The notes: generated by a model from the sequence alone, not told the origin. DNA of 64,000 nucleotides from Pseudomonadota bacterium (GCA_018816865.1 JAHIUW010000023.1:1-64000), one strand, 5' to 3'. Shown: positions 1 through 9,804, numbered from the stretch's first letter. A program made the numbers and translations.

Positions 1-203
1 CTTCTTCCTCGTGGTCATGACGTTCTCCTGGCTTGAGGTTTCGGTGAAGTTTCGCAACTCCAGCCGTACCCCAACCAAGGGCGGCATGACCACGTTCACT
101 TTTGTGGCCAACTGTCAGGTGATAACCATCTCACTACAGTTGGTCTGCCCCATCGTAAGCCCGCCACCCCTGTTCCCAAGGATTGATCCATCGGCCACGC
201 CCC

Positions 204-1571
204 TCACCCCACCATGCGTTCCAGTTCCGGGCGCACCCGCTCGAACAGGCCCGCCAGCTCCACGCGCTCCAGCCCGGGCTGGTCTCCCTGGGCCTCGGGC
301 CAGATCAGCTGGGCCCGGCCCAGGCCGTCCACACGCAGCCGCAGCTTGAGGACCATGGCCCTGTCCAGCAGTTGGCCGTATTCGTCCGAGCCCAGGGTGG
401 GCAGTTCATCAAAGCCCAACTTCCGCACCTGGCAGGCCTGCCTGCGCAGTACATGCCCGGGCAGCCCGGCCAGGGCCCAATCCCGGATCGCCAATTGCCC
501 CACTAGGTCCCCCTGATCTTTGCCCAGGCGGCGGGGCACAGGCCAGCGCACGGCCTGGGGGTAGACCCTGTTCCAGGCAAATCTCCAGGCCCCGCGCGGA
601 GCAAAGTTCCAGGCCATGCGTGCCCCGGCCTGGTCGTTGTCCACCCCCACCAGGATCAGCTCGGCCCGGGTCAGGATCTCATGGGCCTCCTCATCCGGCG
701 CGTGCGAGGTGGAGCGCGTGGCCATCACCCCCAGGCCCAGGGCCCGCAGCTCCTGGAAGACCAGCATGGCGTCGCGCTCGGTCTCCAGCACCACCCAGTG
801 TCGCACCCGCGCCGGGTCGCCCAGCACCATGTAGCGGGTCTCGCTGCCCGGGATCTCGCGGTACTTGGAGCCCCCCTCATGTTCGGGCTCGTCCTGGCGG
901 ATCTTCAGCTGCACCACCTCCCCGTCAACGAACCAGGGCAGCACCAGCCCCGGCGGCAGGTAGATGCAGCGCTCGCGCCCCTGGTGGTTCTCGGCATAGG
1001 GCAGGCCCCAGCTGGTATAGGGCCGAAAGACCTTGTCCGGGTTCAGGCCCATGCGCAGCTCCCCGGCCGTGGTGCGCAGGATTCCCCAGCGCGTGCGCAG
1101 TTTCTCCAGGGCCTCGGCGTCCTGCTGCAACCGGGCCGCGCAATCCAGGGCAAAGGCCGTGGCCTTGGTCCGCCAGATCCGGGGCGCGAACTCCCTGCGC
1201 CGCGGGGCCCAGGCCTGGGGCGCCGCCCCCTCGATGCCCCGGCGCTGTCCGGGGCTCAGCTTGTGGCCCTGGCCAAAGGCCTTCACGAACAGCCTGAAGC
1301 CCTCGGGGTCGTCCTGGTCCCGGCCCTGGGTCACGTTCCACAGCCCGATCAGGTCCGCGCCCTGGCCGCAGGAATAGCAGTGGCCCCAGTCCCGCTCATA
1401 GTCGTAGCGAAAGGCCCCGCCCGGGGACCGCTCGCTGTGCAGCGGGCAATAGGCCCCCAGGGCCGTGGCCGTGCCGTGGCGTTGGCAGATCGCTTCCCCC
1501 ACGCCGCTCAGGATGTCCTGGGCGATGGCCTTGCGCTCCATGGCCGACAACAGCTCTAGTGCCGCCCCCAT
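204..1571 (-). CDS. Phage/plasmid DNA primase with CHC2 zinc-finger and TOPRIM domains (P4 alpha-like N-terminal module). Track ORF extends to 1598; the ATG at 1571 has a GGAGG RBS.
   Basis: CHC2 zinc-finger motif CPLHSERSPGGAFRY...GHCYSCG; acidic TOPRIM-like stretch LILVGVDNDQAG; a GGAGG lies 6 nt upstream of the internal ATG. Confidence 0.75.
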   Translation of the reverse strand: MGAALELLSAMERKAIAQDILSGVGEAICQRHGTATALGAYCPLHSERSPGGAFRYDYERDWGHCYSCGQGADLIGLWNVTQGRDQDDPEGFRLFVKAFGQGHKLSPGQRRGIEGAAPQAWAPRRREFAPRIWRTKATAFALDCAARLQQDAEALEKLRTRWGILRTTAGELRMGLNPDKVFRPYTSWGLPYAENHQGRERCIYLPPGLVLPWFVDGEVVQLKIRQDEPEHEGGSKYREIPGSETRYMVLGDPARVRHWVVLETERDAMLVFQELRALGLGVMATRSTSHAPDEEAHEILTRAELILVGVDNDQAGARMAWNFAPRGAWRFAWNRVYPQAVRWPVPRRLGKDQGDLVGQLAIRDWALAGLPGHVLRRQACQVRKLGFDELPTLGSDEYGQLLDRAMVLKLRLRVDGLGRAQLIWPEAQGDQPGLERVELAGLFERVRPELERMVG

Positions 1572-1598
1572 CCCCCTACCTCCGGTGTTCTCGGTCAA

Positions 1599-1917
1599 GG
1601 TCGATGAGCGCGGGCGCGCCCGGGCCCCAGACCATGGCCCCAGACCTTTGTGCCCTGTTTCCGTAGACCTTTGTCATGGTGTTTTCCTCGCTATTTCGCA
1701 GGCTTGTTTCCAGGCCCAGACCTTGGAGACCTTTGGCCCGACCCTTCTTCCCTTTTTTCATTTCCCTCTTCTTCTCTCTTTCCTTTCTCATTTCTTTTCA
1801 GAATAAGGTCTAAAAGGTCTAAAAAGAGCAAAGAGGGGAGTTCAACACGCCGGAATCCTGTTCCTTTTTCAGCCAGACCTTGACGCTGCCAAGGTCGATC
1901 CCATCCTCTGCCAGGGT
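1599..1917. promoter_or_regulatory. Iteron-like repeat region between the primase and helicase genes; candidate replication origin or regulatory region of the integrative element.
   Basis: At least seven copies of AGACCTT(T)G or its reverse complement AGGTCT, e.g. agacctttgt twice, agaccttgg, agacctttgg, and aggtctaaaaggtctaaaa; plus a roughly 100-nt CT-rich tract. Confidence 0.5.
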
Positions 1918-3942
1918 CTAGTCCCGGGCCTCGTCGTCCTGGCGCTCGCCCAGGGTCCTGCGCCAGTCCTCCTTCAGGCGCAGGCCGTGATATTCCACGA
2001 TATTCGTGCGCCGCGAGCGGAAGCGGGTCTTCATGTCCGTGCCCCACTTGCGTTGGGACTGGACCATCTTCACGGGGATGGATTTCTCGGTCACGCACCA
2101 GAATTTGAAGCTCTCGTACAGGGCCTTGGACTGCTCGAAATTGTCCGCCGGGTGGTTCACGCAGTTCTCGATCCACTCGCCCACCAGGTCCTGTTCCGCG
2201 GTGTATTCCTCGGTCTCGGCCATGACCCCGGCCGGGGCCGCCAGGTCCTCCTCGCGCAGATAGCGGTGGGCGCAGCGCACCAGATAGGCCAGGATCCCCG
2301 GCCCCTCGGCCCGGTACTTGCGCTCCACGTCCTTCATGTTTCCGGCCTGGTAGATGTGCTTGGCCGGGTCCAGCAGCGAGCGGTCGCGCGTGAACTTGGC
2401 CCGAAACGGGATCAGCCGCAGCCTGCGGTAAAAGGCCGGGTCGTTGCCCTTGCACTCGGGCATGTAGTTGGTGTGCAGCAGGATCTTGGCCGTGTTGTGG
2501 AAGTCCACCAGGTCCGCGAACAGCCCGCGCGCGGACATGGTGTCCCCGCCGGTCAGGCTCTTGATGGTCGAGACGTTGAACTTGGAGCCTTGCTCGGCCT
2601 CGGAGAAGATGGCCAGCCGCAGGCCCATCAGCTTCATCAGCTCCGGGTCCGGGCCCCCGCCCTTGCGCATCTCGGTCAACAGCGACACGGGCACGGTCTC
2701 GGCCATGTCGCCCATGACCCAGGCAATGGTCTCGCACCACGAGCTCTTGCCGTTGTCGTGGGTCGGGCCATAGGCCGCCCAGAGCTGCTTGTGGCTCAAA
2801 AGCCCCGTGACCATGTAGCCCAGCACCCGGTCCAGGTAGTCCACTAGGTCCGGGTCGTAGCACATCATGCGCCACAGGCTCTCCTCAAAAAACGGGGCCT
2901 CCAGGTGCGGGCCCAGGTACTCAATGGGCGAGGCTTGGCGGATGTACTGCTCGGGTCGGCCCGGGTGCAGACGCATGGTCTCCAGGTCGATCACCCCGTT
3001 GGCGCAGGCCAGCAGGGTGGGGTGGCGGTCCCAGATCTCGCTGGTCACCCCCAGGGTCCCGCGCCCGGCCACGGCGGTCTGCAGGATCTTGCGCACCACG
3101 GGCAGGCGGCGCAGGTCGTCGGCTCGCGAGCTGTAGGGTTTCACCGCGGCCACAAGGTCCTTGTGCTCGGGGCTGCCGGGCTTGAGCCCGTCCCTGATCC
3201 GCTCCTGGATGCCCTTGCGCCGGCGGATGGCCTCGCGCTCAAAGGGCAGGGCCAGATCCATGACTTGGCGCTGGGCGTCGCGGTACTCGTCGGGTCGCCA
3301 GCGGATCCCGTCAAAGATCATCCAGTGGTCGCTCTTCTGGCCGTCGGCCTTCTTGGTCACGTCCAGCTCGCAGCAGATCCGGTCCCGGACCTTGGCCATG
3401 TACAGTTCGGCCAGGCCCAGGTCGCTGCGGTTGATGGCCGCCTGCAGCTCCTTGGCCGAGGGCGCCCAGTTCTCTTTGCCTGGGGCATCCTGCTGCTTGT
3501 TCTTCTTTTTGTCCTTATACCCCTGACCTGTGTCCGCGCCCCGGCCTGTGCCCGTGGGAGTGCCCTCACGCCCCTGACCTGTGTCCGTGCCCCGGCCTGT
3601 GCCCGTGGGAGTGTCCTCACGCCCCTGACCTGTGTCCGCGCCCCGGCCTGTGCCCGTGGGAGTGTCCAGACCGTCTTGGTCCTTGCCCGGAACACGGCCC
3701 CCTTGCTTGCCCTTCTTTCTGTCTCCGCGCTCCTTGTCTTGGCCAGTGTCCAGGGCCAGCATGGCCCGGCGCTCGTTCTCCACCTCGCCCAGGATCTCGG
3801 CCCGCAGCTCCTCGTCGCGCCACGCGCAAAGGTCAAACTCCCCCTTGCCCGAAACACAGCCCCGAGCGTCAAAGGCGTTTGGTCCCCTGGGCGCGTTGGT
3901 TACGTTGGACGCGTTGGTATGATCCTTTGAGGATTCAGGCAT
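1918..3942 (-). CDS. Phage/plasmid primase C-terminal D5_N/P4-family NTPase (helicase-like) protein. Probable start is the ATG at 3942, with an AGGGA RBS.
   Basis: Walker A GPTHDNGKSS. Conserved D5/P4 primase C-terminal region (VDYLDRVLGYMVTG...FNVSTIKSLTGGDTMSARGLF). N-terminal low-complexity repeat region. Confidence 0.8.
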   Translation of the reverse strand: MPESSKDHTNASNVTNAPRGPNAFDARGCVSGKGEFDLCAWRDEELRAEILGEVENERRAMLALDTGQDKERGDRKKGKQGGRVPGKDQDGLDTPTGTGRGADTGQGREDTPTGTGRGTDTGQGREGTPTGTGRGADTGQGYKDKKKNKQQDAPGKENWAPSAKELQAAINRSDLGLAELYMAKVRDRICCELDVTKKADGQKSDHWMIFDGIRWRPDEYRDAQRQVMDLALPFEREAIRRRKGIQERIRDGLKPGSPEHKDLVAAVKPYSSRADDLRRLPVVRKILQTAVAGRGTLGVTSEIWDRHPTLLACANGVIDLETMRLHPGRPEQYIRQASPIEYLGPHLEAPFFEESLWRMMCYDPDLVDYLDRVLGYMVTGLLSHKQLWAAYGPTHDNGKSSWCETIAWVMGDMAETVPVSLLTEMRKGGGPDPELMKLMGLRLAIFSEAEQGSKFNVSTIKSLTGGDTMSARGLFADLVDFHNTAKILLHTNYMPECKGNDPAFYRRLRLIPFRAKFTRDRSLLDPAKHIYQAGNMKDVERKYRAEGPGILAYLVRCAHRYLREEDLAAPAGVMAETEEYTAEQDLVGEWIENCVNHPADNFEQSKALYESFKFWCVTEKSIPVKMVQSQRKWGTDMKTRFRSRRTNIVEYHGLRLKEDWRRTLGERQDDEARD
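3520..3668. repeat. Near-perfect 3x51-bp in-frame tandem repeat inside the helicase gene, encoding (TGTGRGADTGQGREDTP)x3.
   Basis: Direct read: the unit cccctgacctgtgtccgcgccccggcctgtgcccgtgggagtg(c/t)cctcacg is repeated at 3520, 3571 and 3622. Confidence 0.9.
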
Positions 3943-4470
3943 CCCAGGCTCCCTTGCCGTTGAGGGTGACGCCGTCATAATTTGCTTGGCCGTCTGCCAT
4001 GCCATGAAAAATAGAGGTGATGGAGGTAACACGATCAGGCAGAAGAGTAGTCAGATTGGCCCGCCAGCTCGCGCGGTTCCATCTTTCCATTCCAAAATTG
4101 AAATTGATCCCGCACGCACTTCGTGCTGCTACCGACCCCTGTGGTTTAAGACCATGGGAAGTACCTACGATGTGTGGCCCTGTTGATTTTCGCGGGACTA
4201 GACCTTTCTTTTGTTCTTGTACTGAGGGGGGTGTGGGGTGTGGATGATTTTCACCCGCGTTGAAGCAGTGGTTGCGATCGCTGACGCTCTCGCATCCTTG
4301 AGATTTCGGTAGAGAATATGGGAGTGGCCAATCCGGTGTTGAGGGGACCGGTTTGGGGTCAAAAGTGGGGACAAAACGAGTAGGATATGGGAGCGGTTTA
4401 TGCTTCAGTTGAAGCCGGGAATCCCTTAAGTAAAGGGGCATCGAGGTCTCCCAGCCCGTGTCCTTGCTGC

Positions 4471-4563
4471 CTCTCACGTCGGCAGCAGGGGTTCAAACCC
4501 CCTTGGGGACGCCAACAAAAGCCATGAAAAGTCAGGTAGTTACGCTACCTGGCTTTTCTTCTT
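4471..4563. repeat. Repeat family 1, copy A: a tRNA 3'-half-like segment (T-arm, acceptor 3' strand, discriminator and CCA; 4485-4514) followed by a terminator hairpin (4527-4556). Candidate attR of the upstream element.
   Basis: aggggTTCAAACcccct T-arm, then tggggac-g-cca. No matching acceptor 5' strand or D-arm upstream, so not a full tRNA. Stem gtcaggtag/ctacctggc followed by TTTT. Confidence 0.6.
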
Positions 4564-4629
4564 TTGTGGAAGGGAGAGGTGGGGGCGCGGTGTGCACTCG
4601 TTATGCCGGGAACGGCGCGGTGCCGCGGT

Positions 4630-5667
4630 TCAGGGTGATTCCGGCGTCCACTGGCTGGCGAGTCGTTCGGCTTGGGCTATTTGGTCGGGAGTCATGGACT
4701 GCTCGATATCCTGCGCGATTTGTGCCGCGGCCTCGTTACCTCGCTGGGCTGCCAGCGTGAGCCACATCAAGGCTCGTACGGGGTGGGGGGCGACGCCATT
4801 TCCCTTGGCGTAGGCCAGCCCCAGGTGGAGCTGGCCGGTGGCGTCTCCCTGTTGAGCTGCCCTGTGATACCATAGGGCGGCCATCTCCTTGTCCTGCTCG
4901 ATGCCCTCGCCCAGGTCGTAGGAAACCCCCAGGTTGAATTGGGCCTCGGGACATCCTTGCTGTGCCGCCTCGCGATACCAATGCACGGCCATCTCCTTGT
5001 CCTGCTCCACCCCGTCGCCCAGGTCGTAGGAAACCCCCAGGTTGAGTTGGGCGTCGGTGTCTCCCCCCAGTGCGGCCTTGCGATACCAATGCACGGCTTG
5101 TTCTTTGTCTTGTTCCACGCCTGTGCCGGTGTCGTACATGACCCCCAGGTTGAGTTGGGCGTCGGTGTCTCCCCCCAGTGCGGCCTTGCGATACCAATGC
5201 ACGGCTTGCACCTTGTCCTGCTCTACGCCTTCGCCCAGGGCGTAGGAGACTCCCAGGTTGAATTGGGCGTTAGCATCTCCCTGAACAGCGGCTTCGCGAT
5301 ACCACTGCACAGCCTGGGCCTTGTCCTGCTCCACGCCTTCGCCCAGGTCGTAGGAAACTCCCAAGTTGAATTGGGCGTCGGCGTCTCCTCCCAGTGCGGC
5401 CTTGCGATACCACTGCACGGCTTGTTCTTTGTCTTGTTCCACCCCTGTGCCGGTGTCGTACATGACCCCCAGGTTGAATTGGGCGGTGGCGTTCCCTTGC
5501 TCGGCCGCCTGGCGATAATGTTTTACGGCGAGGGCGTATTCCCCTTGGCTGTAGGCCTTTTTCCCCTCTTGGTAAGGGTTTTGCGTGGTCGCGCAGGACG
5601 TCAGGGCCAGGGCGACAAGGATCAGGGCGCAAGGTGTCAGCAAGGCGGGGATAGTCCTGTTGCGCAT
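4630..5667 (-). CDS. Sel1-repeat (SLR/HcpA-like) lipoprotein with signal peptide and lipobox.
   Basis: About eight tandem AQ(F/L)NLGV(M/S)YxxGxGVEQDxxxAVxWYRKAA units. N-terminal MRNRTIPALLTPCALILVALALTSC; the 36-aa units are also nearly identical at DNA level. Confidence 0.85.
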   Translation of the reverse strand: MRNRTIPALLTPCALILVALALTSCATTQNPYQEGKKAYSQGEYALAVKHYRQAAEQGNATAQFNLGVMYDTGTGVEQDKEQAVQWYRKAALGGDADAQFNLGVSYDLGEGVEQDKAQAVQWYREAAVQGDANAQFNLGVSYALGEGVEQDKVQAVHWYRKAALGGDTDAQLNLGVMYDTGTGVEQDKEQAVHWYRKAALGGDTDAQLNLGVSYDLGDGVEQDKEMAVHWYREAAQQGCPEAQFNLGVSYDLGEGIEQDKEMAALWYHRAAQQGDATGQLHLGLAYAKGNGVAPHPVRALMWLTLAAQRGNEAAAQIAQDIEQSMTPDQIAQAERLASQWTPESP

Positions 5668-6004
5668 GGGGGGGCTCCGTTGGGGCAAACAGTGTTTCGA
5701 GAATGAGGAACTAATAGCAAAGATTTCAGAATGTTTCGAGGAGGATTGGCCTGCCCCGTGCAATGTGTGCTCCGGGGAGGGGCAATGTGCGGGTGTGGCA
5801 GGGTGGGGGTTCCAACGCTGTCAGCGTATAAGTCTTCCACGTTTGGGCAGCTCAACATGCTGCGATATTTGAGGATCTTTTGTTGGTCCGCAGGGGGGCT
5901 GATTTTGCCTTGCCATTTTTCCTCGTGCGTATATAGCCTCCGGGGGTATGATCTGGGGCTGCGTTCTGCCAAGCCCCTTCTCGTACGGGAAATACTGCAT
6001 AAGG

Positions 6005-7552
6005 ATGGTGCCGACAATGAGTGAAGAGACTGAACACAAGCTGCAAACACGCCATCTCTGCATGGACGATTACGAAGCCCTGCGCGGTATCTACAGGCGG
6101 GTCTACAAGGGGGTCGACACCCCGTGGACGCGGGAGCAGATCGCCCTGCTGATCAGCATCTTCCCCGAAGGCCAGGTGTGCATCGAGGACAATGGAGAGC
6201 CGGTGGCCATCGCCTTGTCCATGGTCATCGACTTTAGCCTGTTCGGCGACCAGCACACCTATAACCAGATCATTGGCAACGGCACCTTCAAGTCCCATGA
6301 CCCGGAAGGGGATTACCTCTATGGGATTGAGGTCTTCGTGGACCCGGAATACCGGGGCATGCGCCTGGGGCGTCGGATGTATGATGCCCGCAAGGAGATC
6401 GCCGAAAATCTCAATCTCAAGGGCATCCTGCTGGGCGGACGCATCCCCGGCTACCACAAGGTCTCAAGCGAGATGACGCCCCAGGAGTATATCCTCAAGG
6501 TCAAAAGTCGCGAGATCTACGACTCGGTGCTCACCTTCCAGCTTTCCAACGATTTCCATGTCCGCAACCTGCTCGATGATTACTGGCCGGGCGACCACCT
6601 CTCCCGCGGCAATGCCGTGCTCCTTGAATGGATCAACATCTACTACCAGAAGAAGACTCGACTGGTGGGGCGGACCAAGTCCATCGCTCGCCTCGGCGTG
6701 GTCCAATGGGAGATGCGCCGCTTCGACTCCTTTGACGACTTCATGCAGCAGGTGGAGTTCTTTGTGGACACGGTCAGTGCCTACAAGGCGGACATCATCC
6801 TCTTTCCGGAACTGCTCAACGCTCCGCTGATCCGCATGTACGAGGGCATGAGCCCGTCCGATGCCATGCGCCATTTGGCGGAGCACACCGCTGATATGCG
6901 CCAGGCCATGACGGACATGGCCCTGAGCTACAACATCAACATCGTGACCGGGAGCGTGCCGCAAGTTCAGGAAGACGGCACCCTACACAACGTCAGTTTC
7001 CTGTGCCGCCGCGACGGGACCTGGGACAGCCAGACCAAGCTGCACATCACTCCGGAAGAAGAATCTCACTGGGGTTTCACGGGTGGCCATGATCTGAAGG
7101 TCTTTGACACGGATGTCGGCAAGGTGGGCATCCTCATCTGCTACGATGTGGAGTTCCCGGAACTGGCGCGTTTGCAGACCATGAAGGGCATGAAGATGTT
7201 GTTGGTCCCCTTTTGGACCGACACCAAGACAGGCTACCTGCGGGTTCGGCGTTGCGCCCAGGCCCGGGCCATCGAAAACGAGTGCTTTGTGGCCATCTCC
7301 GGCAGCGTTGGCAACATCCCCAAGGTGGAGACCATGGGAATCCAGTATTCCCAATCCGCCATCTTCACGCCCTCGGACTTCCCCTTCCCCCATGACGCCA
7401 TCGCATCGGAGGTGACACCGGGCATTGAGACAACGCTGATTACCGATGTTGACCTCGACCTGCTCAAGGAGTTGCGCTCCCAGGGCAGCGTGCGCAACGT
7501 CACCAGCCGCAGGACCGACCTCTACGAACTGCGCTGGATCGGGGGCAAATAG
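6005..7552 (+). CDS. GNAT N-acetyltransferase fused to a carbon-nitrogen hydrolase (nitrilase superfamily). Start is 6005 or 6017.
   Basis: N-terminal acetyl-CoA-binding-like region (VFVDPEYRGMRLGRRMY). C-terminal region carries Glu (ILFPEL), Lys and Cys (ILICYDVEFPE) candidates for the nitrilase-superfamily triad. Confidence 0.8.
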   Translation: MVPTMSEETEHKLQTRHLCMDDYEALRGIYRRVYKGVDTPWTREQIALLISIFPEGQVCIEDNGEPVAIALSMVIDFSLFGDQHTYNQIIGNGTFKSHDPEGDYLYGIEVFVDPEYRGMRLGRRMYDARKEIAENLNLKGILLGGRIPGYHKVSSEMTPQEYILKVKSREIYDSVLTFQLSNDFHVRNLLDDYWPGDHLSRGNAVLLEWINIYYQKKTRLVGRTKSIARLGVVQWEMRRFDSFDDFMQQVEFFVDTVSAYKADIILFPELLNAPLIRMYEGMSPSDAMRHLAEHTADMRQAMTDMALSYNINIVTGSVPQVQEDGTLHNVSFLCRRDGTWDSQTKLHITPEEESHWGFTGGHDLKVFDTDVGKVGILICYDVEFPELARLQTMKGMKMLLVPFWTDTKTGYLRVRRCAQARAIENECFVAISGSVGNIPKVETMGIQYSQSAIFTPSDFPFPHDAIASEVTPGIETTLITDVDLDLLKELRSQGSVRNVTSRRTDLYELRWIGGK

Positions 7553-7580
7553 TCGCCAAGGGCCCTCCAGAGGGGCAGCC

Positions 7581-7670
7581 CTCCACGTCCGGCAGGGATT
7601 CAAACCCCCTTTAGGACGCCAGATACAATCACTGAAAAGCCAGAGAGTTACGCTCTCTGGCTTTTCTTAT
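7581..7670. repeat. Repeat family 1, copy B: tRNA 3'-half-like segment plus terminator hairpin.
   Basis: cagggattcaaaccccctttaggacgcca, then aaaagccagagagttacgctctctggcttttctt. About 85% identical to copy A. Confidence 0.6.
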
Positions 7671-7885
7671 TTCAAATTTTTCAGAAACGAAGGACCAGTC
7701 CGCGATCGTGGGGCACCAGACTTTCCATTCACTCCCCATTCGCATAGAGAGGTCCATGCCCATGGACAAGCCGCGACGCCCCCAGGTGGGTTTGGCCCTC
7801 GGTCCTGGCCCTGGTTCCTGGCCGAGCATCCTGCGAGAGTCTCAAATCAATGCAATCCCCGGTTCGAATCTGGAGAGTCACCAAG

Positions 7886-9804
7886 TGAAGATCGTGAACG
7901 TTTTTGGAATGTCCTTAGCGTTGCTCCTCGTGTGCGGGGTGTTTTCTCCGCGGTCTGCTGCCTGGGCGCGGGATACCAGCCAGCCCAAGCCTGAACTCTA
8001 TCAGGCCATTGATCTGGGCGATCTTGCCCGGGCGCGGGTCGCCATCCAGAGCGCCGACGTGAATGCCATCTATGACCGGGATACAATGCTCTGCTGGGCG
8101 CTGCGAAACGAGAACCCGGAGATCACGAAGCTGCTGCTTCAGTCGCCCAGGGTGGACGTCAACAAGCGGGGCATTGGCTATGACGCCTACGGTGATTGGG
8201 AACGCACACCCTTGATCCTTGCCGCACACATGGGCCAGGCCGAGATGGTGGGCCTTTTGCTGCAGCGGGGCGCCAAAGTGAACGCCAGGGACCGCACGGA
8301 CAGCACACCGGAGGCGCGGGGGAACACCGCGCTGCTCAAGGCCGCGCAGAGAGATCACACGGAGGTGATCCGGGTGCTGCTCACCCAGGGGGCGGGCATT
8401 ACAGTCGATGCGCAGACCAAGGATGGCATGACGCCGCTGTGGTTCGTTGCGGAATATGAAAACCTTGAGGCGGTGCAGCTCCTGCTCGCCCACGGCGCAA
8501 AAATCAATCATCCCAACGTCGTGGGCCAGTCCCTGCTTGTGGGAACGTTTCTGCACAAAAAGTACGACGTCTTGGAGTTCCTTGTCGCCCAGGGCGCAGA
8601 CATCAATATGGTGGCAAATAGCGGGCTCACGCCGCTGATGGAGGCCGTCACCGAGCTCGGCGGTAAGAATGCAAAAACGGTCCTCAGGTACATTGAAAAA
8701 TTCATCACCTTCAAGCCCAAGCTGGACCTGGAGCAGATCAAGTCGAACGGTGGCGGCTTTAGTGCCCTGCATCTGGCCGCGCGCTTCGGGTTTGTGGATG
8801 CAGGCAAACTGCTGCTGGACAATGGCGCCAGCATCGACATCAAAGATCTGGCCACGGGCGGCACGCCCTTGCATTCCGCCGCAAGCGCCAACCAGGTCGA
8901 CTTCGCCAGGTTCCTGATCCAGCGCAAGGCCAACCTCGAGATTTTCGACAAAAGCGGCTCGACCCCGCTGATGGTGGCCGTCTATCAGGCTGACGCGGAC
9001 ATGGTGGAGGTCCTGGCGCAGGCCGGAGCGGCAATCAACACCAAATCACCCGTCAATATCCTTGTGACGCCCCTGGTGTATGCCGCCTCGAATCCCGATC
9101 CCTCCAAGCACAAGGACAACCTCTCCATCATCAAAATCCTCGTGGACAACAAGGGCGACATCAACTTCCAGTCCGCCAATGGCAGAACGGCGCTCATGGC
9201 CGCTGCCGCGTGCTCTGACCAAGCGAATGGATACGAGAAAGGGGCCTTGCTGCTCAACCACGGTGCGGACCCCGATGTCGTGAACGACAAGGGAGAGACG
9301 GCCCTGATGCTTGCTGCGGGCGCAGGGAATGAAAAACTCGTTAAGCTCCTCGTGGATAAGGGCGCCGACGTTACAAAAAAGAACGGCGCCGATGAAACGG
9401 TGATGAGCTATGCCAACCGATCCGGCAACAAGGGCAGTACGAGGTTGCTGGAATCCAAAGGCGTCGTGCCTGAAGCCCCCATTGTCAGAAAGAGCGTCAT
9501 TGTCGACGCACTGATCGGAACCTGGAAGGGCTTTCAGGATGGGCTTCCCCAGGCCTTGTACACCGTGGTCCTGAACAAGGACGGCAGCTTTGACTTCACT
9601 TCAAGGTTCACGCCCGAGGCCCTGAAGCAGTTCCCCAAGGGCGCAGTGAATCCGATCATTGCCGCCCAGAAGGGGACGTATACGTTCAACAATGATATCA
9701 TGATCTGGAATCTTGTCGGTGCCCCTCCCACGTCCATGAAGTGGAAGCTGGAGAACGGCGTGCTGGTCATCGACAACAAAATCAGACTGAAAAAGACCAA
9801 GTAA
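7886..9804 (+). CDS. Secreted ankyrin-repeat protein with a C-terminal beta-rich, lipocalin-like tail. Probable GTG start at 7886; the track ORF begins at 7708.
   Basis: Signal peptide VKIVNVFGMSLALLLVCGVFSPRSAAWA. At least eight ankyrin units (TPLxxAAxxGxxExVxLLLxxGAxVN). GGAGAG RBS 8 nt upstream of the GTG. Confidence 0.8.

What the first reader, a model, noticed from the sequence alone, without database searches (positions are those of the whole stretch)
1..4440. Right-end replication module of a P4-like integrative element, truncated by the window edge
A CHC2/TOPRIM primase and a D5/P4-type NTPase (helicase-like) lie on the minus strand. Between them is an iteron-like region (1599-1917). 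Downstream is a lower-GC non-coding stretch (4033-4440) that ends at a tRNA 3'-end-like copy at 4485-4514.

This layout matches P4-type satellites and integrative elements, which insert at tRNA 3' ends and leave a partial tRNA copy (attR) at the far side from the integrase. The integrase and tRNA would lie left of the window.

Such elements often carry defence or accessory hotspots. The gene order, with the helicase upstream of the primase as two separate ORFs, is atypical.
Basis: partly seen in the sequence, partly recalled or inferred. Interest (0 to 1): 0.6.

Follow-up and report, generated by a model that had tools for sequence, protein, structure and literature searches.

The report
Prophage end: replication module and attR
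This is the tRNA-side end of a prophage in a sulfate-reducing bacterium, carrying the phage's helicase, replication origin, primase and attachment-site scar; it is a well-defined but ordinary example, not a P4-type satellite.

Summary
On the minus strand lie a P4/D5-family SF3 helicase (1918-3942) and a DnaG-type zinc-ribbon/TOPRIM primase (204-1571). Between them is a dense repeat array (1572-1917). Next come a lower-GC non-coding stretch and a tRNA 3' fragment.

The fragment spans 4469-4514. It is 46/46 identical to the 3' part of tRNA-Glu(CUC) of Pseudodesulfovibrio.

The window's left edge is the end of the source contig. A second contig, apparently from the same MAG, carries the intact tRNA-Glu followed directly by a tyrosine integrase and phage early genes. 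That is the predicted other end.

The "P4-like satellite" reading does not hold. In 86 related loci the helicase is followed by this primase (83). Where sequence allows, small terminase (69), large terminase (50) and portal follow. One 36.7-kb phage contig has integrase, a tRNA-Glu attP and the helicase in this order.

The spacer has the layout of a SaPI-type origin. Tandem AGACCTT repeats point in opposite directions around a 58-nt purine-rich, AT-rich tract. Relatives keep the layout but use lineage-specific repeats.

Verdict: attR-proximal replication module of a temperate phage, a new member of a known kind.

The parts
1..18 (-). First 6 codons (MTTRKK) of the next gene, running off the window and contig end. 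By synteny it is probably the small terminase.
   Evidence: Read directly from the sequence, with a GGAGA ribosome-binding site upstream. In relatives the gene after the primase matches phrog_57, terminase small subunit. The contig ends here.
204..1571 (-). DnaG-type primase, 455 aa, with a CHC2 zinc ribbon and a TOPRIM catalytic domain. It is not the chromosomal DnaG.
   Evidence: Pfam PF01807 22.3 bits, below cutoff. phrog_47 'DNA primase' 3.2e-10. Invariant CxH..CxxC, E263 and D311xD313. The profile hits DnaG zinc-binding domains in the PDB. The model hits DnaG, T4 gp61 and T7 gp4 primase structures. TIGR01391 scores 17.5 bits against a cutoff of 283.6.
1572..1917 (.). Candidate origin of replication. 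AGACCTT iterons lie in opposite orientations around an AT-rich, strand-asymmetric tract.
   Evidence: Exact AGACCTT on + at 1642, 1665, 1718, 1727 and 1875. Exact on - at 1805-1811 and 1814-1820. One-mismatch copies at 1597-1603, 1629-1635 and 1891-1897. The same layout with lineage-specific repeats occurs in L004-L009 and more loosely across the 84 spacers analysed. It matches the SaPI ori description in PMC9371898.
1742..1799 (-). 58-nt tract, 97% purine on the gene-sense strand, with local GC 0.35-0.38. Proposed DNA-unwinding element.
   Evidence: A 40-nt window of at least 85% purine on the sense strand occurs in 66 of 84 related spacers; only 4 have the pyrimidine equivalent.
1918..3942 (-). 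D5_N plus SF3 helicase of the P4 'primase C-terminal' family, 674 aa. It has no primase domain. Proposed self-loading initiator-helicase.
   Evidence: Pfam D5_N and DUF5906. TIGR01613 above cutoff. The profile hits ASFV C962R (8e-34), poxvirus D5 (7e-22) and SaPI5 PriRep5 7OLA (5.7e-21). In the model, residues 160-670 are confident and 1-157 mostly disordered. The model matches AsfvPrimPol at E=8e-26, TM 0.57.
3520..3699 (-). 51-bp tandem repeat, about 3.5 copies, encoding 17-aa repeats in the disordered N-terminus of the helicase.
3943..4468 (.). Phage-derived P arm of attR, plus the leader and regulatory region of the helicase gene.
   Evidence: GC 0.52-0.56; no gene is called here in the public records. 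Tandem GGGGTCAAAA gt GGGGACAAAA at 4355-4376 are the only two hits to GGGGWCAAAW in 64 kb. The same repeat type sits next to the integrase on the attL contig and in both arms of L006 attP. Box GGGGCATCGAGG (4435-4446) lies at the same distance from the core as in L006. Boxes 4113-4144 and 4077-4095 are shared with L007.
4469..4514 (+). attR core: the displaced 3' fragment of tRNA-Glu(CUC), from the anticodon loop to CCA.
   Evidence: 46/46 identical to L010 and 47/47 to L012 intact tRNA-Glu(CUC). 89% identical to the attP of phage contig L006, in the same position and orientation relative to the helicase gene.
4526..4558 (+). Intrinsic terminator directly after the tRNA fragment. It marks the host side of the junction.
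   Evidence: 15-bp stem followed by a T run. Fold z-score -5.4.

Best explanation
Window 1-4514 is the attR-proximal end of a temperate phage integrated into the tRNA-Glu(CUC) gene of a Pseudodesulfovibrio-like bacterium.

Integration. A tyrosine integrase recombined a phage attP carrying a copy of the tRNA's 3' half, starting at the anticodon loop, with the host gene. The intact tRNA now sits next to the integrase at the far end. The displaced 46-nt 3' fragment, with the tRNA's own terminator, sits here (4469-4514 and 4526-4558). It is preceded by the phage P arm, which carries tandem integrase arm-type repeats (4355-4376).

Replication. The first phage genes inward form the replication module.
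- A P4/D5-family SF3 helicase without a primase domain is proposed to act as a self-loading initiator.
- It would bind the AGACCTT iterons just downstream of its own gene through its variable C-terminal domain.
- Hexamers would assemble in opposite orientations on either side of the 58-nt purine-rich, AT-rich tract and melt it.
- The separately encoded DnaG-type primase would then prime synthesis by host polymerase.

By synteny, the module leads straight into the packaging genes (small terminase, GpA-type large terminase, portal), which lie beyond the contig end.

Shown here: the domain and fold assignments, the repeat architecture and its conservation, the att identity, and the synteny of relatives.
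Inferred: iteron binding and melting, the physical linkage of the two contigs, and the presence of structural genes in this particular element.
For: Att site:
- 46/46 and 47/47 identity to intact tRNA-Glu(CUC).
- Phage contig L006 has integrase, then a tRNA-Glu 3' half antisense (89% identical), then the helicase, in the same geometry.
- A tRNA or tRNA 3' fragment lies 400-660 nt upstream of the helicase gene in ten relatives.

Far end:
- L012/L115 has an intact tRNA-Glu, then an integrase 44% identical to L006's, then CI-like repressor, Phage_CP76 and other genes up to the contig end.
- That integrase is NCBI MBU1002505.1. The helicase and primase are MBU1002565.1 and MBU1002564.1, locus tags KKE73_08580 and KKE73_08575.
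- The same arm-type repeat appears on both contigs.

Phage rather than satellite:
- Of 86 relatives, 83 have the primase after the helicase, 69 have TerS and 50 have TerL. TerS is assigned by PHROGs.
- The two ends together already exceed 11 kb without meeting.

Origin:
- Iteron density is about 70-fold above background.
- GC dips to 0.35.
- The layout is conserved while the repeat sequence is lineage-specific.
- Pairs sharing an iteron have at least 56% identical C-terminal domains. L008 and L039 have 63% identical helicase cores, only 28% identical C-termini, and different iterons.
- The helicase is homologous to SaPI5 PriRep5. SaPI origins lie immediately downstream of rep, with at least two iterons on each side of an AT-rich centre pointing in opposite directions (PMC9371898).

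Primase and helicase folds.
Against: - The contig ends 203 nt past the primase gene. No terminase, portal or capsid gene is seen for this element itself.
- The link between the attL contig and the window is indirect. It rests on the accession series, core identity and shared arm repeats, not on contiguity. No sequence overlap was found.
- No binding or replication data exist.
- In the more distant relatives most repeats lie on one side of the purine tract. Only 21 of 60 passed my crude test for an orientation switch.
- No clear sigma-70 promoter was found upstream of the helicase gene.
- The early-gene region next to the integrase shares only the integrase with L006.
Confidence: 0.8

Rival explanations
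1. This is a small P4-like or PICI-like satellite or integrative island. It carries only integrase, regulation and a replication module, and depends on a helper phage for its capsid.
For: The helicase belongs to the P4 'primase C-terminal' family and is homologous to SaPI5 PriRep5. The ori layout is SaPI-like. No structural gene is visible in the window, and the element is cut by the contig end.
Against: All relatives with enough sequence continue into TerS, TerL and portal. The closest relative has TerS directly after the primase. The two ends already total more than 11 kb without joining. There is no fused primase-helicase. The att block is anticodon-type and 46 nt long. The candidate integrase shows only PF00589.
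Confidence: 0.08
2. This is a defective prophage remnant. The replication module and attR survive, but the rest has been deleted or rearranged. The integrase contig would then belong to a separate element at another copy of the tRNA.
For: Contiguity is not shown. A second, degenerate tRNA-Glu-like copy 3.1 kb downstream shows that this locus has a history of rearrangement or repeated integration.
Against: Both genes are intact and full length relative to homologues. The attR core is a perfect match to the functional tRNA. The arm-type repeats match those next to the integrase. The element's GC is still well above the host's.
Confidence: 0.1
3. The repeat array at 1572-1917 is not the origin. 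It would instead be an operator/promoter region for the primase and late genes, or a terminase recognition (cos/pac) site.
For: The packaging genes begin about 1.4 kb downstream in relatives. Repeated protein-binding sites also characterise cosB-type sites and operators. A single AGACCTT also lies upstream of the helicase gene at 4200-4206, which suggests a regulatory role for the same binding protein.
Against: The array lies immediately after the SF3 helicase gene, as in SaPI origins. It surrounds a GC 0.35 tract. The repeat sequence co-varies with the helicase C-terminal domain. A cos/pac site would be expected next to the small terminase gene, meaning the 19-203 spacer.
Confidence: 0.12

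Closest known systems
SaPI (Staphylococcus aureus pathogenicity island) pri-rep-ori replicon, e.g. SaPI5 PriRep5 (PDB 7OLA) and SaPI1 Rep1
   Same: The SF3 helicase is homologous to PriRep5 (profile E=5.7e-21). The origin lies immediately downstream of the helicase ORF. It is built of short iterons, with at least two on each side of an AT-rich centre pointing in opposite directions (PMC9371898; window). A separate primase gene is adjacent.
   Different: The gene order here is helicase-ori-primase; SaPIs have pri-rep-ori. The primase is of the DnaG zinc-ribbon/TOPRIM type. The host is a Desulfovibrionaceae bacterium. In relatives the module belongs to full phages with their own terminase and portal, not to satellites.
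Satellite phage P4 (alpha primase-helicase, ori/crr iterons, integration at a tRNA 3' end)
   Same: The helicase scores above the cutoff for TIGR01613, 'phage/plasmid primase, P4 family' C-terminal domain. Both replicate from iterons and integrate at a tRNA gene, leaving a 3' fragment.
   Different: From my own knowledge, P4 alpha is a single fused primase-helicase-DNA-binding protein, and P4 lacks packaging and capsid genes. Here the primase is a separate gene and relatives carry TerS, TerL and portal. The att block is 46 nt and anticodon-centred. The candidate integrase shows only PF00589.
tRNA-integrated prophages and islands as defined in Islander (regenerated tDNA plus displaced 3' fragment; anticodon-centred attP class)
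   Same: A displaced 3' tDNA fragment in the correct orientation. An intact tDNA with an adjacent tyrosine integrase. An anticodon-centred identity block. These are the commonest classes in Islander: 3760 of 3919 islands have a 3' fragment, and 2083 have an anticodon-centred attP (PMC4383910).
   Different: Nothing essential. The two ends lie on different contigs, so the island's length is unknown.
NCLDV D5-type primase-helicases (ASFV C962R, poxvirus D5/E5)
   Same: Best structural and sequence matches for the D5_N plus SF3 helicase plus C-terminal part.
   Different: The viral proteins carry an N-terminal AEP primase-polymerase. This protein has a disordered, repeat-containing N-terminus instead and relies on a separate DnaG-type primase.

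Membership tests
P4-type satellite phage | Single fused primase-helicase (alpha-like) replication protein | tested here: not met
   The 674-aa protein has D5_N plus SF3 helicase only. Residues 1-157 are disordered or repetitive. The primase is a separate downstream gene.
P4-type satellite phage | P4-family 'primase C-terminal' domain (TIGR01613: D5_N plus SF3 NTPase) | tested here: met
   185.8 bits against a cutoff of 108.7.
P4-type satellite phage | No terminase, portal or capsid genes of its own (helper-dependent) | tested here: inconclusive
   The contig ends 203 nt after the primase. Among relatives, 69 of 86 have TerS and 50 of 86 have TerL downstream; portal appears where sequence allows. 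The closest relative has TerS next.
P4-type satellite phage | P4-type integrase and a short 3'-end/T-loop att core | tested here: not met
   The identity block is 46 nt and starts at the anticodon loop, Islander's anticodon-centred attP class. The candidate integrase P0215 and L006's integrase carry only PF00589. Caveat: the integrase is on another contig.
tRNA-integrated temperate phage (Islander-type definition) | Displaced 3' tDNA fragment identical to the functional tDNA, oriented with its 3' end away from the element | tested here: met
   4469-4514 is 46/46 and 47/47 identical to intact tRNA-Glu(CUC). The fragment's 5' side abuts the phage genes and its 3' side abuts a terminator.
tRNA-integrated temperate phage (Islander-type definition) | Intact tDNA with an adjacent tyrosine integrase at the other end | tested here: met
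   L012/L115 has tRNA-Glu(CUC) at 6854-6929 and an integrase at 7004-8170 pointing toward it. NCBI accession MBU1002505.1 falls in the same series as the window's MBU1002564/5. The arm-type repeats match. Physical contiguity with the window is not shown.
tRNA-integrated temperate phage (Islander-type definition) | Virion packaging and morphogenesis genes in this element | not testable with these tools
   They would lie beyond the contig end. This is inferred only from synteny in relatives.
SaPI-type Rep-ori replicon (works-like comparison) | SF3 initiator-helicase homologous to Rep/PriRep | tested here: met
   The profile of the helicase family hits 7OLA (PriRep5) at E=5.7e-21 over chain residues 432-742.
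SaPI-type Rep-ori replicon (works-like comparison) | Origin directly downstream of rep, with at least 2 iterons on each side of an AT-rich centre in opposite orientation | tested here: met
   In gene-sense order: AGACCTT x2 at 1820-1805, then the tract 1799-1742 (GC 0.35-0.38), then the inverted copies x2 at 1733-1718, plus further copies.
SaPI-type Rep-ori replicon (works-like comparison) | Helicase binds and melts its cognate origin | not testable with these tools
   Only indirect support: the iteron sequence co-varies with the helicase C-terminal region.
DnaG-type primase | CHC2 zinc ribbon | tested here: met
   C42, H45, C65 and C68 are invariant. The profile hits DnaG zinc-binding domains 2au3 and 1d0q. 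The Pfam score is just below cutoff.
DnaG-type primase | TOPRIM RNA-polymerase domain with E...DxD | tested here: met
   E263 and D311/D313 are invariant. The model matches DnaG RNA-polymerase domains, T4 gp61 and T7 gp4 (E from 2e-10 to 1e-3).
DnaG-type primase | Chromosomal DnaG equivalog (full-length score, DnaB-binding C-terminus) | tested here: not met
   TIGR01391 scores 17.5 bits against a cutoff of 283.6, matching the zinc finger only. The C-terminal 80 residues are variable or absent across the family.

The most novel reading that the evidence does not exclude
The attP/attR of this phage type may hold more than a tRNA 3' half. It may encode a compact, D-arm-less tRNA-Glu mimic.

Just 5' of the anticodon stem, the phage arm carries an acceptor-5'-strand-like heptamer: GTCCTTG here (4460-4466) and GTCCCCA in L006. 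The region can fold as acceptor stem, anticodon-like arm, T arm and CCA. The three differences between the two phages all keep pairing through G-U wobble.

If transcribed, it could be a functional tRNA-like RNA, for example a decoy or processing substrate. Otherwise it is an evolutionary scar of attP capture.
Probability: 0.05. Interest if true: 0.55.

Novelty: new member of a known kind. Interest (0 to 1): 0.3.

Why it matters
The result fixes one prophage boundary to the base. It names the target tRNA and gives a testable origin and initiator pair for an uncultivated but widespread phage lineage.

- The lineage is represented by at least 80 IMG/VR contigs.
- The primase family has about 5,900 relatives among the 50%-identity representatives.
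- None of the 50,697 GenBank phage records has a match to this primase.

The origin layout described for SaPI satellites is also used, in helicase-ori-primase order, by phage contigs that carry their own packaging genes. This bears on where satellite replication modules came from.

For genome annotation, a P4-family helicase next to a tRNA scar should not by itself be taken as a satellite.

Tried and rejected
- Extending the contig to the left. The window edge is the contig end in the ENA assembly. A Logan contig stops about 110 nt earlier.
- Scanning viral contigs for the P-arm box GGGGCATCGAGG-N13-GTCC. All 17 hits were chance matches with no tRNA-like sequence after them.
- Scanning viral contigs for a D-arm-less tRNA-Glu pattern. 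One hit came back, in an unrelated AT-rich phage, and the pattern itself forced the GTCC. Other att fragments in relatives lack the acceptor-like 5' strand. The idea therefore rests on two related sequences only.
- Searching viral contigs with the integrase. Only two weak relatives were found.
- Searching viral contigs with the single primase sequence. Only two weak hits were found.
- Using a 17-sequence helicase alignment for the locus search. It was too diverse, so a 7-sequence one was used.
- Rfam. Nothing reached gathering scores in the whole window. The low-score hits around both tRNA-like copies (miRNA, mascRNA, NrrF) are noise or reflect the hairpins.
- Searching GenBank phages with the primase. 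No match.
- Looking up the ENA/Logan variant of the integrase (P0335). It is not on record, so a shared ENA sample for the two contigs could not be shown.
- Testing for end overlap between the window and the integrase contig. None was found.
- Folding the origin region as single-stranded DNA. It is no more stable than shuffles (z=0.45).
- Treating the small ORFs in the helicase-primase spacer as genes. They differ in strand and position between relatives, and the repeats fall in different reading frames.
- Treating ORF 3935-4477 as a gene. It starts inside the tRNA fragment and is not called in the public records.

Full report
**What is in the sequence**

Positions 1-4600 contain two long minus-strand ORFs.
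- ORF 1918-4032 matches Pfam D5_N (6.9e-14), DUF5906 and NCBIfam TIGR01613 'phage/plasmid primase, P4 family' (185.8 bits, cutoff 108.7).
- An exact-sequence look-up recovers the 674-aa product that starts at ATG 3942. I take that as the gene start.
- ORF 204-1571 (455 aa, also recovered exactly) gives only a sub-threshold CHC2 zinc-ribbon hit (22.3 against 24.9 bits).

GC is 0.65-0.71 over the genes. It falls to 0.35-0.56 in the spacer between them and to 0.52-0.56 in 3943-4468. The rest of the window sits near 0.58. ARAGORN and Rfam find no RNA gene.

**The two proteins**

Helicase:
- A family profile hits ASFV C962R (8e-34), poxvirus D5/E5 (about 1e-21) and SaPI5 PriRep5, PDB 7OLA (5.7e-21). 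The identity of 7OLA is confirmed in PMC9371898.
- In the AlphaFold model, residues 160-670 are confident and residues 1-157 mostly disordered. It superposes on AsfvPrimPol over about 530 columns (E=8e-26, TM 0.57).
- No primase domain is present. The N-terminus instead holds a 51-bp tandem repeat (3520-3699).

Primase:
- Nine homologues keep CxH...CxxC, E263 (ETERDA) and D311xD313 invariant.
- The profile hits DnaG zinc-binding domains.
- The model (pLDDT 77) finds DnaG zinc-binding plus RNA-polymerase domains, T4 gp61, T7 gp4 and Twinkle.
- It is not the chromosomal DnaG: TIGR01391 scores 17.5 bits against 283.6.
- The family is large, with 5,936 representatives at E<=0.001. It has no match in 50,697 GenBank phage records.

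**The tRNA scar is an attR**

Positions 4469-4514 are 46/46 identical to tRNA-Glu(CUC) of a Pseudodesulfovibrio MAG (L010). They are 47/47 identical to the intact tRNA-Glu(CUC) in L012. The block runs from the last two bases of the anticodon-stem 5' strand to CCA.

A strong terminator follows at 4526-4558. The fragment's truncated 5' side faces the phage genes, and its 3' end faces the host. This is the geometry of a displaced 3' tDNA fragment. The anticodon-centred class is the commonest in Islander (PMC4383910).

Phage contig L006 (36.7 kb) has, in order, integrase, a tRNA-Glu(UUC) 3' half antisense (89% identical to the window copy), and the helicase gene. Recombination at that attP would give exactly the arrangement seen in the window. 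In ten relatives a tRNA or a T-arm/acceptor/CCA fragment lies 400-660 nt upstream of the helicase gene.

The P arm carries tandem GGGGTCAAAA gt GGGGACAAAA at 4355-4376. These are the only two matches to GGGGWCAAAW in the window. It also carries a box, GGGGCATCGAGG, at the same spacing from the core as in L006.

**The other end**

The window's left edge is the end of contig k141_927785, so it cannot be extended.

The tRNA pattern search found JGI contig Ga0180007_10000863 (L012/L115).
- It carries an intact tRNA-Glu(CUC), then 75 nt holding GGGGACAAAT ccc GGGGACAAAA.
- Next comes a tyrosine integrase pointing at the tRNA. It is 44% identical to L006's integrase.
- Then come a CI-like repressor, Phage_CP76, a KAP NTPase and small ORFs up to the contig end.

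That integrase is NCBI MBU1002505.1. The primase and helicase are MBU1002564.1 and MBU1002565.1 (KKE73_08575 and KKE73_08580). The accessions are 59 apart, well inside one genome's block, and all three entries are labelled as a Proteobacteria MAG. I take them as the same MAG. This is an inference: contiguity is not shown and the contig ends do not overlap.

The 58 accessions in between could hold host genes, the missing phage middle, or both. This is a hint only.

**Phage or satellite**

Every relative with enough sequence continues from the primase into packaging and head genes.
- N. liaohensis (L004), D. mangrovi (L005), L006, L008 and L009 all do so.
- In 80 IMG/VR contigs plus six other loci, 83 of 86 have the primase directly after the helicase on the same strand.
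- The gene after the primase is a small terminase by PHROGs, including in the closest relative L007, which is 58-64% identical.

The two ends of the present element already total more than 11 kb without meeting. The element is therefore most likely a complete temperate phage of roughly 35-45 kb. The helicase-then-primase order is the norm for this lineage.

**The spacer as origin**

AGACCTT occurs seven times exactly, with three one-mismatch copies, in 1597-1897. That is 20 per kb against 0.3 per kb elsewhere. The repeats fall in different reading frames of the spurious ORFs there, so they act at the DNA level.

Read in the helicase gene's sense, the layout is:
- an inverted pair;
- a pyrimidine run;
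- two tandem AGACCTT, 9 bp apart;
- a 58-nt tract that is 97% purine with GC 0.35-0.38 (1799-1742);
- two tandem inverted copies, followed by more inverted copies.

L004-L009 show the same layout with their own repeats: AGATTTT, TAGGGGA, TTAGACC and GCGGTTT. Across 84 spacers:
- 66 have a 40-nt window of at least 85% purine on the sense strand, against 4 with the pyrimidine equivalent;
- 60 have a 7-mer present at least four times;
- the orientation switch is clear in the closer relatives, but only 21 of 60 passed my crude test overall.

The repeat sequence tracks the helicase C-terminal region.
- Pairs that share a repeat are at least 56% identical there.
- L008 and L039 are 63% identical in the helicase core, only 28% identical in the C-terminus, and use different repeats.

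This matches the published SaPI origin. In SaPIs the iterons lie immediately downstream of rep. At least two sit on each side of an AT-rich centre in opposite orientation. They are bound by the winged-helix C-terminal domain of a self-loading SF3 Rep (PMC9371898). The model's C-terminus (three helices followed by two short strands) is compatible with such a domain, but I did not test this further.

**Comparison with known systems, and verdict**

The element works like a SaPI/P4-type iteron replicon. By lineage, however, it belongs to tRNA-integrating temperate phages with lambda-type (GpA) packaging genes.
- P4-satellite membership fails on the fused alpha protein and on att and integrase type. 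It is untestable on the absence of structural genes.
- The finding is real and well resolved, but ordinary: a new member of a known kind.
- The only oddities are side observations: the D-arm-less tRNA-like fold spanning the phage arm and core, and the second degenerate tRNA-Glu copy with a co-varying terminator 3.1 kb downstream.

Noticed in passing
window 7580-7621 and 7636-7666 (compare 4469-4514 and 4526-4558): There is a second, degenerate tRNA-Glu-like copy, 84% identical over 45 nt to the real tRNA's 3' part and possibly a decayed near-full-length pseudogene starting GTCGCCA at about 7553. Its terminator is homologous to the one after the attR copy: same TTACG loop and flanks, with two fully compensatory stem changes. 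The 3.1 kb between the copies holds a Sel1-repeat gene and a GNAT-nitrilase gene. This could be a relic of an older integration (tandem-array history) or a duplicated tRNA locus.
   Followed up: partly
window 4460-4514; L006 7577-7631 (minus strand): Just 5' of the anticodon stem, the phage arm carries an acceptor-5'-strand-like heptamer: GTCCTTG here and GTCCCCA in L006. The region can therefore fold as a D-arm-less mini tRNA (fold z=-2.7; weak mascRNA-like Rfam hit). The three differences between the two phages all preserve pairing as G-U. Other att fragments in relatives lack this feature.
   Followed up: partly
window 4077-4095, 4113-4144, 4160-4170 (minus strand): Non-coding boxes upstream of the helicase gene are conserved with L007: TTGGAATGGAAAGATGGAA, CCACAGGGGTCGGTAGCAGCACGAAGTGCGTG (which contains the hairpin GCACG-AAGTG-CGTGC) and TCGTAGGTACT. 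A 13-nt piece, CACAGGGGTCGGT, is also shared with L005. Their function is unknown; promoter, operator or leader are possibilities.
   Followed up: partly
window 4200-4206: A single AGACCTT copy lies upstream of the helicase gene. L007 has its variant (AATGTCTA) at a similar distance from the conserved TCGTAGGTACT box. The initiator may also regulate its own gene.
   Followed up: no
window 1-203 (contig end); L002 end: Two assemblies (ENA and Logan) break within about 110 nt of each other in the spacer between the primase and the next gene, probably the small terminase. An inverted repeat lies at 10-22 and 82-94. This is where a cos/pac site would be expected. The break could equally reflect strain variation or a shared repeat.
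   Followed up: no
window 3520-3699: A 51-bp tandem repeat (about 3.5 copies, 86-96% matches) encodes 17-aa repeats (DTPTGTGRGADTGQGRE) in a disordered N-terminal extension of the helicase that homologues lack. The Logan contig L002 starts in or next to this repeat.
   Followed up: no
window 4878-5485: The Sel1-repeat gene (4630-5763, minus strand; seven Sel1 repeats) is built of 108-bp and 324-bp tandem DNA repeats that are 80-87% identical.
   Followed up: no
whole window: Outside the origin region, AGACCTT still occurs 19 times in 64 kb, whereas dinucleotide shuffles of the whole window give a mean of about 4 matches in total. This is probably a codon or composition effect of the host genome.
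   Followed up: no
L005 9483-9569; L035 52-127; L036 1076-1169: Related prophages sit next to intact tRNA-Leu(CAA), tRNA-Thr and tRNA-SeC, with the tRNA reading toward the helicase gene. This is the opposite att polarity to the window. The lineage has therefore switched both target tRNA and orientation.
   Followed up: partly
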